In this document: positions 7,853-64,000 of the stretch, piece by piece
Numbering within the stretch: the stretch's first letter is position 1
How the letters are laid out: every line of letters begins with the position of its first letter
From: a bacterium
GTDB lineage: Bacteria > Patescibacteriota > Patescibacteriia > SG8-24
NCBI GenBank assembly: GCA_043825985.1
Contig: JBDRRB010000018.1
Location: 16,934-80,933, forward strand
DNA: 64,000 bases
Direction of reading: 5' to 3'
Program-made: the position numbers and the translations under genes
The notes under the pieces: generated by a model
Seen by the model: only the letters and a program-made list of their open reading frames with translations
Database searches by the model: none
What the model was told of the DNA's origin: nothing

Positions 7853-7993
7853 CGTACCATATCAGGACCGGGGCGGGCAGGCTGGCGGTCCGGCAAACAG
7901 AAAAGGCCGCGGCGACAGCCCGACCTCCTCTTCAGAGCTGACACGAAATGGCATGACGAAAGGTCCCGAGCAGGTCGGACGAGTCCCGCCGCC

Positions 7994-52443: not shown

Positions 52444-53580
52444 CTACGCACGCACGCCCTTCATGGACATCGACTCCAGAAGACCGATCATCGCGAACTT
52501 CACGAGCAGCGAACTGCCGCCGTAGCTGACGAACGGCAGGGTCACTCCGGTCACCGGCATCAGCCTCAGGTTCCCTCCCAGATTGACGAACACCTCAAGG
52601 GCGATGGAGACCGTGATGCCCGTCGCCAGGTACACCGAAAAGTCGTCGCTCGACCGAACCGCCAGCCGATACCCGCGCCAGAACACCACGCCGAACATCA
52701 GGCACAGGACGAACACTCCGACGTAGCCCAGCTCCTCGGCGATGACCGCGAAGATGAAGTCGGTCTGTCGTTCCGGCAGGAAGCGCAGCTGACTCTGCGA
52801 CCCGTAGCCCATGCCCTTGCCGGTCAGCCCGCCGGATCCGATGGCGATTATCGACTGGGTGACGTTGTAGCCGCGCCCGAGCGGATCGCTTTCCGGATCA
52901 AGAAACGACAGGATGCGGTCCTTCTGGTACGGCTTGAGCAGCAGGGTCCAGGCCAGCAGCGCCACCGCCCCGACGCCCACTGCCAACAGCAGCAGGTGCG
53001 AACGCCTGATGCCGGACAGCAGGACCAGCACTCCCCAGACGCCCATTATAAGGAATGCGGAACCGAAGTCCGGCTGCAGCAGCACCAGGCCGACGACCGG
53101 CAGGACGGCCAGGCCGGAGACGATCACGTGCCGCAGTCCCCTCTCCTTTCCGGCGAAGTCGCTCAGGTATTTCGCCAAAAAGATGATGACCAGCAGCTTG
53201 ACCAGCTCGACCGGCTGCACGCCGAATCCGGCGATGCCGAACCAGCCGGTCGTGCCGCGAATCCGCGTGCCGAAGACCAGGACCAGCAGCAGCAGGACAA
53301 CCGAAATCGACAGAACCTGACGCGACATTCGCGACAGCGAACGGTAGTCGAAGGCCGGCAGGGCGAAGGCCAGGACCAGGCCGAGACCGACGAACCAGAG
53401 CTGCTTCCAGAAGTTTCCCAGGTCCGGACCGGCGGAAGACGAACCGGAAACCAACGCACTGCCGGCACCGGCCAACGAGGTGCTGTAGAGCGCCGACAGG
53501 CCGAACACGGCCAGCAGAACGCAGGCCCCCAAAAGGAGCCAGTCGAACTTGAGGACGTCGTAAGTTGATGTTCTGGACAT
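52444..53580 (-). CDS. ftsW: SEDS-family peptidoglycan glycosyltransferase (FtsW/RodA)
   Basis: About 10-TM topology with the conserved ...GLTGKGMGYGSQ... and C-terminal ...LPFVSYGGSS... SEDS motifs. Confidence 0.85.
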   Translation of the reverse strand: MSRTSTYDVLKFDWLLLGACVLLAVFGLSALYSTSLAGAGSALVSGSSSAGPDLGNFWKQLWFVGLGLVLAFALPAFDYRSLSRMSRQVLSISVVLLLLVLVFGTRIRGTTGWFGIAGFGVQPVELVKLLVIIFLAKYLSDFAGKERGLRHVIVSGLAVLPVVGLVLLQPDFGSAFLIMGVWGVLVLLSGIRRSHLLLLAVGVGAVALLAWTLLLKPYQKDRILSFLDPESDPLGRGYNVTQSIIAIGSGGLTGKGMGYGSQSQLRFLPERQTDFIFAVIAEELGYVGVFVLCLMFGVVFWRGYRLAVRSSDDFSVYLATGITVSIALEVFVNLGGNLRLMPVTGVTLPFVSYGGSSLLVKFAMIGLLESMSMKGVRA

Positions 53581-54109: not shown

Positions 54110-54250
54110 CTTAAAACAAAGCGGACTTCAGGTTGGATGAAGTGTGCTTGGCTGGAGCGATCCGTGCAGCGAAACGTACTAAGAACGTACGTTGAGCAAA
54201 CGGATCGCGAAGCCAAGTGCAATTCGCCAAGCTGGAGTCCGCCCAATCTA
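54110..54250. repeat. Structured repeat element, copy B (diverged)
   Basis: gcggact...agtccgc 7-bp closing helix, atgaagtgtgc core, gcgaaacgtac-taagaa-cgtacgttgagc hairpin, gtgcaattcgcc 3' core. Overlaps the stop codon of 54248..55249. Confidence 0.6.
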
Positions 54251-55249
54251 ATCCTCCGGCGCAAGGTAGATGGCCGGATCGAACAGGTTCAACTCCGGCC
54301 TAACTTCGACTCGGGTCACGCTCGGCAGGTCATTGAACCAGCTGGCCTCGACAGTCCTGGTCTCGCCGGCCTTCAGCCCGCTCGCCACGACCCGGTTGGC
54401 CGCCACTACCCGTTCGCCGCTCAGCAGGGCCACCATGAACGGCACCGAAACGTAGCCGTAGGCGGTGTTGTTGGTGACGCTGAAACGGGCCCGGCTGACC
54501 GGCAGCGACGACTTCGGGTCCGGCGGCATGAACTCCGGATCGGCGATGACGAAATCCAGCCGGCTGGTCGCCCAAGTCTGGTAGTCGGGACGGACGACAT
54601 GCCCGTCAACCCGATGCCAGGACAGGTCGACTATCTCGAAGCTGGGGCTCGGCCGTCGGTCGGCGTCGACCGCCAGCTGATACAGGTAGCGGGAGTCGGC
54701 CGGCAGGAGATATCCGTGCTGCACGCGGTCCGGCAGCCCGGAATCGACGAATCGGTAGTCGAACTCGACCCACCAGCGACGGTTCGGGTTGGCCACCCGG
54801 GCCAGCAGGTCGTACTTGCCCTCGCCGGACGTCAGCACGATCGGCGTCTGGACGGACAGGCGCTCCGGCATGGAGGCCTCGCGGAATCCGGCGTAGTCGG
54901 TCAGATTCTGGGTCAGGAGGGCGGTTCCGGCCCGCTCCCGCACGCCGGACCCGAAGAACCAGTCGGCGAAACCCCAGACGCCGTAGGCCAGAAGAGAAAA
55001 TCCGACCACTGCCAGCAGCACGGTCAGCCCGGTCTTGAGCTGCGCCTTGTGATGAAGCCACCACAGGCCCCACCTGAGCTGATCCTCCGAAAGACGGTCA
55101 TCGTTCTCGATTGGTGTCTCCATATAATATAGGTAGCCGGTTAACGACTCCATGATAGCAGACTCGGGCGGCCGGGCCGAGAGACTTGACCGAGACCGAC
55201 GGCTGTGTTGTACAGGCCGGCTGTGACCTCTCCTCGAGAGGCACTGCAA
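54248..55249 (-). CDS. Hypothetical membrane protein
   Basis: N-terminal TM region (GLTVLLAVVGFSLLAYGVWGF) and a ~250-aa extracytoplasmic domain. No recognisable motif. Confidence 0.5.
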   Translation of the reverse strand: MQCLSRRGHSRPVQHSRRSRSSLSARPPESAIMESLTGYLYYMETPIENDDRLSEDQLRWGLWWLHHKAQLKTGLTVLLAVVGFSLLAYGVWGFADWFFGSGVRERAGTALLTQNLTDYAGFREASMPERLSVQTPIVLTSGEGKYDLLARVANPNRRWWVEFDYRFVDSGLPDRVQHGYLLPADSRYLYQLAVDADRRPSPSFEIVDLSWHRVDGHVVRPDYQTWATSRLDFVIADPEFMPPDPKSSLPVSRARFSVTNNTAYGYVSVPFMVALLSGERVVAANRVVASGLKAGETRTVEASWFNDLPSVTRVEVRPELNLFDPAIYLAPED

Positions 55250-55255
55250 AGGAGG

Positions 55256-57947
<2,692 letters not shown>

Positions 57948-57980
57948 AACCGGTCACCCGAAAAATCACAGTCGTCAAAA

Positions 57981-58008
57981 AGATGGCCCTACCAAGGACC
58001 GTCTTTTG
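57981..58008 (+). terminator. Putative terminator after gyrB
   Basis: Imperfect hairpin agatggcc...ggaccgtct, then CTTTTG. Confidence 0.35.
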
Positions 58009-58035
58009 ATTCCATCGAGTCGGCTGCCCCTGGCC

Positions 58036-58064
58036 TTGACGACAGGCAGCACACCGGTTAATCT
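58036..58064 (+). promoter_or_regulatory. Sigma70-like promoter (TTGACG-N17-TAATCT) for small Cys-protein gene 1
   Basis: -35 at 58036-58041, -10 TAATCT at 58059-58064. AAGGAGG Shine-Dalgarno at 58108-58114. ATG at 58120. Confidence 0.45.
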
Positions 58065-58119
58065 GACCGGTCCACTCAAAACAACATCCGTTTGGATGCC
58101 GAGACACAAGGAGGACGAG

Positions 58120-58560
58120 ATGGACCATGACAAAAGGAGGACCAAACGGATCAGAAGCACTATCCTGACGGTCATTCTGACCTCGGTGCTGGTAGTCTCG
58201 ATCGTCTGCATCCACTGGCACCGCTCGACGACCGATACCTACGTCACGGAGACAGTCGAGCTGCTGGATGGCCACGTCGTCGAACTGCTGCTCGAGGACG
58301 GCTCTCACTGTGCGGCCGCTCCGCCCGACCGGCTGGTGACCAGGCTGCTGCAGAGCGGTGACAACGGACTGACGGCCATGACCGAGTACCGCCGCGACGA
58401 TCCGAACCAGAACGGCTGGGAAAGCCTGTGCCCGGACCGGCAGAGGGCAACCGTGACGTTAGACCAATGGCGACAGATCATCCGCACGGCGGGCTACCAT
58501 CGCCGTCTGGCCGAGTATCGACGAGGCCTGGACGGACGGCCGACGACGGATCAGCCGTAG
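58120..58560 (+). CDS. Small membrane-anchored two-cysteine protein, paralog 1
   Basis: TM helix (ILTVILTSVLVVSIVCI). Shared motifs with the two downstream genes: HC..PPDRLV, EY, CPD, W[QR]. Confidence 0.5.
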   Translation: MDHDKRRTKRIRSTILTVILTSVLVVSIVCIHWHRSTTDTYVTETVELLDGHVVELLLEDGSHCAAAPPDRLVTRLLQSGDNGLTAMTEYRRDDPNQNGWESLCPDRQRATVTLDQWRQIIRTAGYHRRLAEYRRGLDGRPTTDQP

Positions 58561-58667
58561 CAGCCGCCGCAGACCAACCTGCCGACCGCTGGACAGCCGT
58601 CGACAGGTTGACGAGCAGACCGAATTCCACTACCATCAACCGTCGCTCCGCCAAAACCGAACGAACT

Positions 58668-58695
58668 TCAGGCGATCCGCGGATCGCCTTTTGTT
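58668..58695 (+). terminator. Intrinsic terminator after paralog 1
   Basis: ggcgatcc-gc-ggatcgcc hairpin followed by TTTTGTTCTG. Confidence 0.6.
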
Positions 58696-58796
58696 CTGTC
58701 CGGTCGTCAGAACGCGCCCGACATGCTTGACAGCGCGGCCGAGAGGGTCAAACATACGTCCGTCGGTCGACACGACCGACGGATCCGGAGGACAAG

Positions 58797-59291
58797 ATGG
58801 ATAAGCAACAATCCGAAACCGACGAGAGACCGCGGGCAGACAAGTCGAACTTCAACCCGCACCGAACGATGCTCCTGTTTGCGACACTGCTCCTTGCCGT
58901 GGCATGTGTAGGGCTGTTCGTGCTGGCGGCGGTATTCAGCGTGTACTTAAGCTTCGACACGGAAATCCCGAACGAACACCGAGAGAACGCCCCAGCAGTC
59001 GAGCTGGTCGGCTACCACTCGCCGGTACTACCGCTCGGCCGTGACGAGCACTGCCTAACCGTACCGCCAGGCAGGTTGGTCTTCGTCGACCCGATGAACC
59101 CAGAACCGACAACGGTCGACCGTCTCATCACGGTCGAGTACCAACGGACTGAAGGGATGCCGGTCAGGCTGGGCCGAACGGTCGAGTGTCCGGCCGGCCG
59201 ATACCACATCAGGTTGAGCAAGTGGCAACGGATCGTCGCCGAAGCCCGGCTGCAGCGGGACTTGGCCGGCCGTGCCGACGAACCGAACTGA
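58797..59291 (+). CDS. Small membrane-anchored two-cysteine protein, paralog 2
   Basis: TM helix (LLFATLLLAVACVGLFVLAAVF). EHCLTVPPGRLVF, VEYQR, CPAGRY, SKWQRI motifs. Confidence 0.5.
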   Translation: MDKQQSETDERPRADKSNFNPHRTMLLFATLLLAVACVGLFVLAAVFSVYLSFDTEIPNEHRENAPAVELVGYHSPVLPLGRDEHCLTVPPGRLVFVDPMNPEPTTVDRLITVEYQRTEGMPVRLGRTVECPAGRYHIRLSKWQRIVAEARLQRDLAGRADEPN

Positions 59292-59334
59292 GCCGGTCGG
59301 CGCGTCCCCGCCAGCACACACGCGAGCGAACCTC

Positions 59335-59366
59335 AAGGCAGCCGACCTACAGGCTGTCTTTTTCTT
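59335..59366 (+). terminator. Intrinsic terminator after paralog 2
   Basis: ggcagcc-gacctaca-ggctgtc hairpin (one G-U) followed by TTTTTC. Confidence 0.55.
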
Positions 59367-59539
59367 TCTAACAGTGTCCGGACCAGGCTTGACGGACCGG
59401 TCGGGAAATGTTTCACTGCACCCTCCGCGAAATTCATGACTGGCCGGCTAGTCGCCGGACCGAACTGCGGAAGAAGGAAGGTCAGATGAACGACCAAGAC
59501 TCAGAAACCACCAACTGATCGATTATAGACGAGGCCCCT

Positions 59540-60049
59540 GTGCCCGAATGGCTCAAGAAGACGGTGAGAACGGAAACTGCCATCGCCGCAGAGGAACTGC
59601 GACAGCAGAAGAAACTCCAGTTCAGACGCAGACTGATTGCGCCAATGCTGGTCATCGTGATCATCATCCCGATCATTGGCCACGTCAGTCGGCTCATCAA
59701 CAACTACCGATACGGAAACTCCGATGGGCCGTACCCGATAGTGAACGACCTGCCTACCTCATACGTCGGCGACCTACCGACGCATGACCTGGCGAACCAG
59801 TGGGACGGCGGCACCTGCACCGCGCACGGCCGGCTGACCGTCATAAACCAGGACTCAGAACTCATACTGCTCAGGTATCAGGATGAACGTGACAGCCTGA
59901 CCGTCAGGTCGGACAATGACTGCCCGGACGGATATCTGACGGTACTGCCGCTCGAGGTCTGGAACCTGGCCTGTCAGACCTGGCAGGCTCGAACGGTGCA
60001 AGAGCTGAGCATTGAGCCGGAGCGCGTCACCGGACTGTTCGCCAGGTAA
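59540..60049 (+). CDS. Small membrane-anchored two-cysteine protein, paralog 3
   Basis: TM helix (LIAPMLVIVIIIPIIG). GGTCTAHGRLTV, RYQDE, CPDGYL, EVWNLACQTWQAR motifs. Confidence 0.5.
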   Translation: MPEWLKKTVRTETAIAAEELRQQKKLQFRRRLIAPMLVIVIIIPIIGHVSRLINNYRYGNSDGPYPIVNDLPTSYVGDLPTHDLANQWDGGTCTAHGRLTVINQDSELILLRYQDERDSLTVRSDNDCPDGYLTVLPLEVWNLACQTWQARTVQELSIEPERVTGLFAR

Positions 60050-60073
60050 CAGACGAAGCCGAAGCCGAATTTA

Positions 60074-60098
60074 CGAGGCCGAACTGGCCTCTTTTTTG
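60074..60098 (+). terminator. Intrinsic terminator after paralog 3
   Basis: gaggcc-gaact-ggcctc hairpin followed by TTTTTTG. Confidence 0.65.
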
Positions 60099-60126
60099 TC
60101 CGTCCACCGCCTTCCGGTCGTCAGCC

Positions 60127-60155
60127 TTGCCAAACCGCAATCGAGGAGGTATGCT
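60127..60155 (+). promoter_or_regulatory. Sigma70-like promoter upstream of secE (TTGCCA-N17-TATGCT)
   Basis: -35 at 60127-60132 and -10 at 60150-60155. Confidence 0.4.
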
Positions 60156-60175
60156 AGCAGCAAGAAATCGAGACG

Positions 60176-60197
60176 ACCGCCACCGGGGCGGTTTTTA
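60176..60197 (+). promoter_or_regulatory. Terminator-like hairpin plus U-tract inside the secE leader (candidate attenuator)
   Basis: accgcc-accgg-ggcggt then TTTTTAG, ending 10 nt before the secE ATG and about 20 nt after the predicted -10. Confidence 0.35.
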
Positions 60198-60207
60198 GAA
60201 CCAAAAT

Positions 60208-60414
60208 ATGGCTAAGATATCACTAAGCAACAATCCGCTCGTCAACTACGCCCGCAATTCCCGGGACGAGCTGAAGAGGGTCTCCTGGCCGACCCGCCAG
60301 CAGATCATCAAGGACACGCTGATCGTGATCGGCGTCTCGGTCGCCATGGGCGCGTTCTTCGCGCTGGCGGACAAGCTGTTCGAGATCGGCTTCCGTCAGG
60401 CCATCGGCCAGTAG
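60208..60414 (+). CDS. secE: Preprotein translocase subunit SecE
   Basis: 68-aa protein with a single C-terminal TM helix (LIVIGVSVAMGAFFALADKLF), immediately upstream of nusG. Confidence 0.8.
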   Translation: MAKISLSNNPLVNYARNSRDELKRVSWPTRQQIIKDTLIVIGVSVAMGAFFALADKLFEIGFRQAIGQ

Positions 60415-63744: not shown

Positions 63745-64000
63745 ATGAATACCTACACACGCCCGAGCTGGAACGACTATTTCATGAGCATCGCCAAGAT
63801 CGTGGCTACCCGCTCGACCTGCGACCGACTGCGAGCCGGCGCCGTGCTCGTCAAGAACAAACGCATCATCTCCACCGGTTACAACGGTGCGCCTCCCGGC
63901 CTGCCGCACTGCGACGGTGAGGAGGGCCACAAGATGGAGGAGGGCCACTGCATCCGCACCATCCATGCCGAAGAGAACTGCATCCTACAGGCGGCCCTGC
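63745..64000 (+). CDS. Deoxycytidylate (dCMP) deaminase, ComEB-like (partial, continues beyond window)
   Basis: MNTYTRPSWNDYFMSIA...STCDRLRAGAVLV...GYNGAPPGLPHCD...HAEENCI carries the CDA zinc motifs (H-A-E, and C..C presumably beyond the window end). Confidence 0.8.
   Translation, partial: MNTYTRPSWNDYFMSIAKIVATRSTCDRLRAGAVLVKNKRIISTGYNGAPPGLPHCDGEEGHKMEEGHCIRTIHAEENCILQAAL

What the first reader, a model, noticed from the sequence alone, without database searches (positions are those of the whole stretch)
58036..60098. Three tandem paralogous small membrane-anchored two-cysteine proteins, each with its own terminator, between gyrB and secE
Genes at 58120, 58797 and 59540 (146, 164 and 169 aa) each have one N-terminal TM helix followed by a ~100-aa domain. 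The domains share an ordered motif set: [HT]C-x3-5-[PG]-RL[VT], then [ER]Y, then CP[DA], then a Trp in W[QRN]. The two conserved Cys are spaced about 45-50 residues apart, consistent with an extracytoplasmic disulfide. Each gene is followed by a clean intrinsic terminator (58668, 59335, 60074). The first has a TTGACG-N17-TAATCT promoter and an AAGGAGG Shine-Dalgarno. An independently transcribed triplet of diverged paralogs in a conserved housekeeping neighbourhood suggests an expanding family of surface proteins such as an adhesin, receptor or immunity-like protein.
Basis: seen in the sequence. Interest (0 to 1): 0.5.

Follow-up and report, generated by a model that had tools for sequence, protein, structure and literature searches.

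The report
Clade-restricted surface-anchored two-cysteine protein family
Three neighbouring genes in an uncultured Patescibacteria (Uhrbacteria-like) genome are real, diverged copies of a very rare, undescribed family of small proteins tethered to the outside of the cell membrane; it sits almost only between gyrB and secE in one narrow clade, and its function is unknown.

Summary
Three + strand genes (58120-58560, 58797-59291, 59540-60049) lie between gyrB and secE. Each has a Shine-Dalgarno site, one N-terminal TM helix, a ~100-aa domain and its own terminator. A and B are significantly similar. C is not similar to either pairwise, but a homologue from a related MAG (P0004) bridges all three (z = 6-11, 0/5000 shuffles).

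An exhaustive HMMER search of 1.84 billion proteins found only about 8 further members. With neighbours found in their loci, the family has 17 sequences. All members that can be placed come from genomes with NusG ~90-91% identical to the window's. 15 of 17 sit in the gyrB-secE interval, at 1-4 copies per locus. The closest relative examined (L005) has none in that interval.

The two Cys are the only invariant columns. Two members replace the TM helix with a lipoprotein signal, so the domain works outside the membrane. In one paralogue pair dN/dS is ~1 in the cytoplasmic tail, 0.29 in the domain and 0.14 in the C-terminal Arg/Glu-rich helix.

There are no Pfam, NCBIfam, PHROG, PADLOC, PDB or fold matches.

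Best reading: a taxonomically restricted, disulfide-stapled envelope binding or scaffold module, with no evidence for or against an adhesin or immunity role. Interest is modest.

The parts
55854..57947 (+). gyrB, the upstream flank. The ORF opens at 55779; the likely start is ATG 55854 (MAEKTNKK), by comparison with L005.
   Evidence: Pfam DNA_gyraseB, Toprim, HATPase_c and DNA_gyraseB_C; ORF list; L005 GyrB start.
58036..58064 (+). Candidate promoter of gene A: TTGACG, 17-nt spacer, TAATCT. The -35 is good; the -10 is weak.
   Evidence: Read. The CTTGACG box is shared by all three upstream regions. Not called by the consensus scan.
58085..58098 (+). Small hairpin in the 5' leader of gene A. 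Not better than shuffles.
   Evidence: z = -0.9 for the whole leader.
58108..58114 (+). Shine-Dalgarno AAGGAGG, 5 nt before ATG 58120.
   Evidence: Read.
58120..58560 (+). Gene A, 146 aa: K/R-rich tail, TM helix at residues 13-31, ectodomain with Cys64 and Cys104, C-terminal helix. NCBI calls it from ATG 58096 (154 aa, ABIJ46_01345).
58670..58697 (+). Intrinsic terminator of gene A: 8-bp GC-rich stem followed by a T-run.
   Evidence: -19.9 kcal/mol, z = -4.1.
58727..58755 (+). Candidate promoter of gene B: TTGACA, 17-nt spacer, AAACAT.
58758..58784 (+). 12-bp perfect hairpin in the 5' leader of gene B, ending 2 nt before its Shine-Dalgarno site.
   Evidence: -22.2 kcal/mol, z = -3.1. Also flagged on the - strand.
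58797..59291 (+). Gene B, 164 aa: tail, TM helix around residues 25-49, ectodomain with Cys86 and Cys131, C-terminal helix. GGAGG at 58787-58791.
59335..59368 (+). Intrinsic terminator of gene B.
   Evidence: -15.0 kcal/mol, z = -2.6.
59389..59417 (+). Candidate promoter of gene C: TTGACG, 17-nt spacer, TTCACT.
59486..59518 (+). 10-codon upstream ORF (MNDQDSETTN) with an AAGGAAGG Shine-Dalgarno-like element, in the leader of gene C. Significance unknown.
   Evidence: Read.
59540..60049 (+). Gene C, 169 aa, GTG start with GAGG 5 nt upstream: tail, TM helix at residues 32-50, ectodomain with Cys93 and Cys128. Belongs to a different subfamily from A and B.
60075..60098 (+). Intrinsic terminator of gene C.
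   Evidence: -11.7 kcal/mol, z = -2.4.
60127..60155 (+). Promoter-like site for secE: TTGCCA, 17-nt spacer, TATGCT.
60208..60414 (+). secE, the downstream flank. It is followed by nusG, an ASCH-domain gene and rplK.
   Evidence: Pfam SecE.

Best explanation
The three genes are paralogues of an undescribed protein family. The family is restricted, as far as can be placed, to one narrow Uhrbacteria-like clade of Patescibacteria.

**Architecture**
- A short, poorly conserved cytoplasmic tail.
- A membrane anchor: a single TM helix, or a lipoprotein signal in two relatives.
- A ~70-residue beta-rich extracytoplasmic domain with one invariant Cys pair, most simply read as a structural disulfide.
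- A conserved 25-45 residue C-terminal Arg/Glu-rich helix ('EE.RRRAAERR').

**Shown**
- The genes are real.
- They are homologous.
- The domain is outside the membrane.
- The tail and anchor serve only as a tether.
- The family sits at the gyrB-secE junction at 1-4 copies per locus, mostly as monocistronic units with their own terminators.
- At least two subfamilies predate the split between the window's genome and that of L093.

**Inferred mechanism**
- The protein acts on the outer face of the cytoplasmic membrane as a non-enzymatic binding or scaffolding module.
- The disulfide-stapled beta-domain holds the conserved charged helix, which is the interaction surface. That surface would mediate self- or hetero-oligomerisation between co-encoded subfamilies, or binding to an anionic envelope polymer or a partner protein.
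- Separate promoters let the copies be expressed independently.
For: **Real genes and one family**
- A-B is significant.
- P0004 bridges A, B and C with z = 7.1, 6.1 and 10.8, 0/5000 shuffles each.
- All-against-all phmmer links all members, for example C against L093 n189 at 1.5e-11 and A against P0007 at 3e-8.
- A family HMM scores every member at E <= 1e-10 and nothing else in 96 loci plus the window.

**Rarity**
- 14 hits at E <= 1e-3 in 1.84e9 representatives: the 4 query proteins, 8 new members and 2 repeat-protein artefacts.
- The word-indexed and metagenome scans add nothing new.

**Outside location and anchor-only N-terminus**
- The two Cys are the only invariant columns in 16 sequences.
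- P0007 and L093 n141 have a lipobox instead of a TM helix.
- K/R residues are concentrated before the TM helix in A and C.
- dN/dS is 0.97 in the tail, 0.59 in the TM, 0.29 in the ectodomain and 0.14 in the C-terminal helix.

**Non-enzymatic**
- Besides the Cys pair, conserved positions are G, P, L, Y, W and N, which are structural residues.

**Architecture**
- AlphaFold models (pLDDT ~75) show a TM helix, 6-7 strands and a long C-terminal helix.

**Locus and copy number**
- Family genes lie downstream of gyrB and/or upstream of secE in L021, L082, L084, L086, L089, L090 and L093.
- There are 4 copies in L093, 2 in L086 and at least 2 in L089.
- L005 has none in the interval; its gyrB-secE gap is 184 bp.
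- Family-bearing loci that include nusG show ~90-91% NusG identity to the window, against a median of 78% over all loci.

**Own terminators**
- Window.
- L093 and L021.
Against: - No experiment, expression data or known homologue bears on function.
- The disulfide is inferred from invariance only. The model coordinates could not be read to measure the S-S distance, and no Dsb-like oxidoreductase was looked for.
- The dN/dS figures come from one paralogue pair in another genome, with dS ~0.95, close to saturation.
- The closest relative examined has no copy at the locus, so the family is dispensable. That argues against a core envelope role.
- The promoter -10 elements are weak.
Confidence: 0.5

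Rival explanations
1. One reading: rapidly diversifying adhesins or receptors that mediate attachment of the episymbiotic cell to its host, with paralogues providing alternative specificities.
For: - The domain is on the surface.
- Copy number varies, from none in the interval up to 4.
- Sequences are extremely divergent between genomes whose NusG is ~90% identical.
- CPR-enriched families are mostly membrane or extracellular, and some are proposed to act in cell-cell interaction (PMC6744442).
Against: - The only measurable pair shows purifying selection on the ectodomain (0.29) and C-terminal helix (0.14).
- The ectodomain is only ~100 aa, with no repeats, stalk or wall-anchoring motif, so it may not reach beyond the cell wall.
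- The most conserved element is the same charged helix in all subfamilies, which is not what variable specificity predicts.
Confidence: 0.2
2. Accessory cargo of a variable junction: an immunity, superinfection-exclusion or other defence-type membrane protein that landed in the gyrB-secE hotspot.
For: - In 80 related loci the gyrB-secE gap ranges from 87 to 5355 bp and carries unrelated genes in different genomes.
- The family is absent from this interval in the closest relative, L005.
- An equally unannotated ~230-aa partner gene follows some members.
Against: - No match to PADLOC, PHROGs, IMG/VR or GenBank phages.
- No toxin, integrase or flanking repeats.
- GC content is like the surroundings.
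- The family is vertically associated with one clade and one locus, not scattered.
Confidence: 0.12
3. A lineage-specific accessory of protein export, functionally tied to SecE because of conserved adjacency.
For: - 15 of 17 family sequences lie in the gyrB-secE interval.
- They are single-pass membrane proteins, like many translocon accessories.
Against: - Each gene has its own terminator, and secE has its own promoter-like site.
- The family is missing from this interval in L005 and in the other Patescibacteria loci examined, which share the same gyrB-secE junction.
- Lipoprotein variants lack any TM segment that could contact SecYEG.
- Two members lie elsewhere in their genomes.
Confidence: 0.05
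4. The ORFs, or at least C, are chance open frames in GC-rich DNA, and the shared motifs are coincidental.
For: - C is not significantly similar to A or B.
- High GC content produces many long spurious ORFs on both strands.
Against: - Homologues with the same architecture and invariant Cys pair occur in at least 9 independent assemblies.
- C matches L093 n189 at 1.5e-11 and P0010 at 1.5e-8.
- dN/dS is below 1 in the ectodomain, though measured on an L093 paralogue pair rather than on the window's genes.
- The genes have Shine-Dalgarno sites and terminators.
Confidence: 0.01

Closest known systems
CPR-enriched single-TM or extracellular protein families of unknown function (Méheust et al. 2019, PMC6744442)
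   Same: - Patescibacteria-specific.
- No annotation.
- One predicted TM helix and an extracytoplasmic bulk.
- Proposed envelope or cell-cell interaction roles.
   Different: - Those 106 families are widespread across the CPR.
- This family is confined to one narrow clade and to about a dozen 50%-identity clusters in 1.84e9 proteins.
- It was not checked whether it corresponds to any family in that paper.
Bacterial lipoproteins and type II (N-in) signal-anchor proteins
   Same: - The tethering mode is the same. Members interchange a signal-anchor TM helix and a lipobox, as known envelope proteins do.
   Different: - This is a targeting class, not a homologous family, and says nothing about function.
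- The three window copies are TM-anchored, not lipoproteins.
Csm1 / SAS-6 head / COMM-domain type 'beta-domain followed by an oligomerising helix' modules
   Same: - They share the overall layout: an antiparallel sheet followed by a long C-terminal helix.
   Different: - Those proteins are eukaryotic and cytoplasmic, without disulfides.
- This is an analogy of layout only.
Type IV pilins and pseudopilins (common small N-terminal-TM proteins of CPR)
   Same: - Small proteins with one N-terminal hydrophobic helix and often a C-terminal disulfide.
   Different: - No class III signal (G|F/M-T-L-I-E with Glu at +5) in any member (read).
- No pilin Pfam hit.
- The long charged N-tails are incompatible with prepilin leaders.

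Membership tests
   - A-B: z = 9.5.
- C against A or B: not significant.
- P0004 links A, B and C at z = 7.1, 6.1 and 10.8.
- The family HMM scores A at 2e-25, B at 7e-22 and C at 3e-21.
   The only two invariant columns in the 16-sequence alignment. The partial member in L089 also has both.
Any curated family (Pfam-A, NCBIfam, PHROGs, PADLOC) | Profile match at or near the curated threshold | tested here: not met
   All 16 members were scanned. No family was matched by more than one member, and the best E-value in any library was 0.013.
Any protein of solved structure | Sequence or fold similarity to a PDB chain | tested here: not met
   - The profile against PDB sequences matched only a designed coiled coil, over the N-terminal tail/TM part of the profile.
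- Foldseek found no hit at E <= 1e-3.
- The AFDB library was unavailable.
Type IV pilin / pseudopilin | Class III signal peptide: short basic leader, Gly at -1, Phe/Met at +1, Glu at +5 | tested here: not met
   The sequences show 12-45 residue tails and no G-[FM]-x-x-x-E at the start of the hydrophobic helix.
Bacterial lipoprotein | Lipobox (PROSITE PS51257-type pattern) at the end of an N-terminal signal peptide | tested here: not met
   - The relatives P0007 (…CFTAGC) and L093 n141 (…LLALAC) do match.
- A and C have no match.
- B's match lies inside a TM helix after a 24-residue acidic/basic tail, so it is not a signal peptide.
Membrane-bound anti-sigma factor (single-pass, N-in) | Cytoplasmic anti-sigma domain of at least ~50 aa (for example ZAS HxxxCxxC) and an adjacent ECF sigma gene | tested here: not met
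   - The tails are 12-31 aa with no Cys/His motif.
- They evolve neutrally (dN/dS 0.97).
- The neighbours are gyrB and secE.
- Lipoprotein variants have no cytoplasmic part at all.
Disulfide-bonded extracytoplasmic domain | The two Cys are within bonding distance and oxidised in vivo | not testable with these tools
The inference rests on invariance and the outside location.

The most novel reading that the evidence does not exclude
A gene family that arose at the gyrB-secE junction of one Uhrbacteria-like clade, either de novo or by divergence beyond recognition. It would have a fold not represented in the PDB. Its subfamilies (A/B-type, C-type, core type and lipoprotein type) would assemble through the conserved Arg/Glu helix into a hetero-oligomeric surface complex used for contact with the host or with an envelope polymer.
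Probability: 0.12. Interest if true: 0.6.

Novelty: new variant of a known kind. Interest (0 to 1): 0.3.

Why it matters
Patescibacteria proteomes are dominated by unannotated membrane and surface proteins thought to underlie their symbiotic lifestyle. This locus offers a compact example that could be studied:
- The family is defined here by 17 sequences.
- It has a clear architecture: an anchor, a disulfide-stapled domain and a conserved charged helix.
- It occupies a fixed chromosomal address.
- Its copy number varies naturally, from none in the interval up to 4.
- The subfamilies are old.

If the clade became culturable or the proteins were expressed, the family would be a simple test of how taxonomically restricted surface proteins originate and diversify. 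On present evidence it is an ordinary orphan family, not a new kind of system.

Tried and rejected
1. **Direct proof that C is a paralogue.** BLASTP, Smith-Waterman with shuffles and an A+B HMM were all non-significant. The ordered motif is rare in shuffles (123 of 200,000), but it was defined after seeing the sequences.
2. **Word-indexed protein searches with 3-, 4- and 16-sequence profiles.** Searches returned only the sequences used as queries. One search returned three of the queries plus a 184-aa protein that is probably L086 n184 (not checked).
3. **Metagenome contig scan.**
   - A 3-sequence alignment found only the already known P0005 contig.
4. **Viral and phage searches** found nothing.
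6. **Mobile-element signs.** There are no flanking direct or inverted repeats beyond 12-14 nt chance matches and no GC anomaly.
7. **Rfam.** No RNA family was found in the window.
They are too diverged (19-24% identity), so synonymous sites are saturated. I used the L093 n189/n187 pair instead.
9. **Pilin, anti-sigma and Sec-accessory readings** were considered and rejected. See the membership tests and rival explanations.
Full report
**1. What is in the window**

Between gyrB and secE lies a 2.26-kb interval. gyrB is the ORF at 55779-57947 and matches Pfam DNA_gyraseB, Toprim, HATPase_c and GyrB_C. secE is at 60208-60414 and matches Pfam SecE. The interval holds three + strand ORFs:
- A, 58120-58560, 146 aa.
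- B, 58797-59291, 164 aa.
- C, 59540-60049, 169 aa, with a GTG start.

Features shared by the three genes:
- Each has a GGAGG/GAGG element exactly 5 nt before its start codon (read).
- Each has one strongly hydrophobic 19-residue window. A and C have 6 K/R residues in the tail before it and B has 2, which gives an N-in, C-out prediction.
- Each is followed by a hairpin plus T-run, at 58670, 59335 and 60075. These fold at -19.9, -15.0 and -11.7 kcal/mol, better than almost all shuffles.
- Each upstream region carries CTTGAC[GA] followed, 17 nt later, by a weak -10 element. These are 3 of only 13 + strand CTTGACR sites in 64 kb.

NCBI annotates the three as hypothetical proteins ABIJ46_01345, 01350 and 01355 of an unclassified MAG. 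None of them has a Pfam hit.

**2. Are they paralogues?**

- A and B are significantly similar: BLASTP 2e-6; Smith-Waterman z = 9.5, 0/2000 shuffles.
- C is not significantly similar to A, to B, or to an A+B profile.
- The link came from synteny. A NusG-seeded scan of GTDB species representatives returned 80 Patescibacteria loci of Uhrbacteria, Falkowbacteria and similar groups.
- One of these, L021, has a 158-aa gene (P0004) directly after gyrB with the same layout. P0004 is significantly similar to all three window proteins: z = 7.1 for A, 6.1 for B and 10.8 for C, 0/5000 shuffles each.
- Later members reinforce this. C matches L093 n189 at 1.5e-11 and P0010 at 1.5e-8. A matches P0007 at 3e-8.

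**3. How big is the family?**

- An ectodomain profile searched exhaustively against 1.84 billion cluster representatives gave 14 hits at E <= 1e-3. Four were the query sequences, eight were new small proteins with the same layout, and two were repeat-protein artefacts.
- Inspection of the loci of the new members added five more unlisted copies: L093 n189, n187 and n141, L086 n184, and a partial gene at the start of L089.
- Word-indexed searches, a JGI metagenome scan, IMG/VR and GenBank phages added nothing.
- A family HMM finds no further copy in the 64-kb window. Among the 80 NusG-related loci it finds only L021.

**4. Where the family sits**

- The copies lie downstream of gyrB and/or upstream of secE in L021, L082, L084, L086, L089, L090, L093 and the window.
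- Two weaker members, P0013 and P0014, are elsewhere in their genomes.
- Copy number per locus is 1 (L021, L084, L090), at least 1 (L082), 2 (L086), at least 2 (L089), 3 (window) and 4 (L093).
- The closest relative in the set is L005, Uhrbacteria RIFOXYC2_FULL_47_19, with GyrB 85% and NusG 92% identical. It has only 184 bp between gyrB and secE and no copy there.
- All family-bearing loci that include nusG have NusG ~90-91% identical to the window's. The median over all loci is 78%. The family therefore marks one narrow clade.
- In more distant relatives the same junction ranges from 87 to 5355 bp and carries unrelated cargo.
- Family genes in L093 and L021 also have terminators of their own.

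**5. Anatomy and constraint**

- In the 16-sequence alignment the two ectodomain Cys are the only invariant columns.
- The recurring motifs are: G-P-[FY]-P just after the anchor, LP.GY, C…GP[GS].L, [FL]V[LM]..Y, EC, and [ST]L.[DE]WN. A C-terminal helix rich in Arg and Glu ('EE.RRRAAERR') follows.
- Two members, P0007 and L093 n141, have a lipoprotein signal in place of the tail and TM helix. The domain must therefore act outside the membrane, and the N-terminus is only a tether.
- The one pair close enough for codon analysis is L093 n189/n187, at 57% identity. Its dN/dS is 0.97 in the tail, 0.59 in the TM helix, 0.29 in the ectodomain and 0.14 in the C-terminal helix, with dS ~0.95.
- A neighbour-joining tree puts C with L093 n189/n187 and P0013 at 100% bootstrap, and A with B at 58%. 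C-type and A/B-type copies therefore separated before these genomes diverged.
- AlphaFold2 models built on a 4-sequence alignment (pLDDT ~75, pTM 0.53 and 0.64) show a TM helix, 6-7 beta-strands and a long C-terminal helix.
- No member matches Pfam, NCBIfam, PHROGs, PADLOC or PDB sequences.

**6. Interpretation**

Shown:
- The genes are real and form one family.
- The domain is extracytoplasmic and tethered.
- A Cys pair is invariant.
- Selection is purifying and strongest on the C-terminal helix.
- The family is restricted to one clade and largely to one locus.
- The genes form tandem arrays of old subfamilies.
- Most copies are monocistronic.

Inferred:
- The Cys pair forms a structural disulfide.
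- The protein is a non-enzymatic binding or scaffold module, because the conserved residues are structural.
- Its conserved charged helix is the interaction surface, used for oligomerisation between co-encoded subfamilies or for binding an anionic envelope component.

The adhesin or receptor reading remains possible. It gains nothing from the selection data, and the small size of the domain counts against it. Immunity, defence and Sec-accessory readings have little support. Background: CPR-enriched families are mostly unannotated, and most have at least one predicted TM helix (PMC6744442).

**7. Novelty and score**

The family is undescribed and very rare. In kind, however, it is a typical taxonomically restricted envelope protein of a CPR bacterium. 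The fixed address, the variable copy number and the ancient subfamilies are mildly interesting. Nothing indicates a new type of system. Interest 0.3.

Noticed in passing
L021:7512-8222; L084:8601-9251; L089:671-1384 and 2056-2781: A second unannotated family of ~216-241 aa with no TM helix and no Pfam hit, ending in …W-L-V-[IV]-I-A. It follows family members directly in three relatives (L021 against L089, E = 5e-56), and in L089 the two families alternate. This suggests a two-gene module. It is absent from the window.
   Followed up: partly
L002-L081 (gyrB-secE junction); window 57948-60207: The gyrB-to-secE adjacency is conserved in about half of the 80 NusG-related Patescibacteria loci. The gap ranges from 87 to 5355 bp and holds unrelated cargo in different genomes (glycosyltransferases, an SDR, MsrB-like genes, membrane proteins). 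It is a variable junction.
   Followed up: partly
window 59486-59518: A 10-codon upstream ORF (MNDQDSETTN) with an AAGGAAGG Shine-Dalgarno-like element lies in the 5' leader of gene C, between its candidate promoter and its start codon.
   Followed up: no
window 58758-58784: A perfect 12-bp hairpin (-22 kcal/mol, z = -3.1) lies in the 5' leader of gene B and ends 2 nt before the Shine-Dalgarno site. It could modulate translation or mRNA stability.
   Followed up: partly
L084:4207-5409 (-); L090:616-1858 (-); L021:3169-4214 (-): Pairs of small (159-184 aa) cytosolic paralogues without Pfam hits lie upstream of gyrB on the opposite strand in L084 and L090 (E down to 8e-40 between the two genomes). 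A similarly placed pair of ORFs in L021 was not compared. There is no obvious counterpart in window 55250-55778.
   Followed up: no
window 54248-55249 (-): A 333-aa protein with one TM helix and no Pfam hit lies between ftsW/rodA (52444-53580) and gyrB. It is conserved in L005, L021 and L084, so it is another lineage-conserved gene of unknown function.
   Followed up: partly
L094:7854-8390: P0013 is a truncated gene call of 129 aa. An in-frame ATG at 7854 gives 178 aa, with the M..PF.PPP N-tail and TM helix typical of the C-type subfamily.
   Followed up: yes
L002, L004, L009, L010, L013, L015, L021 and others (record titles): Many MAGs whose NusG/GyrB and gene order are plainly Patescibacteria carry the record title 'uncultured Gammaproteobacteria bacterium'. 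This is probably a submission-level mislabel.
   Followed up: no
L086:8490-8888; L089:5584-5988; L090:9029-9382: In relatives, a T4SS_pilin (PF18895) gene and dUTPase follow rplA. The window ends at 64000, just after rplA, so this could not be checked there.
   Followed up: no
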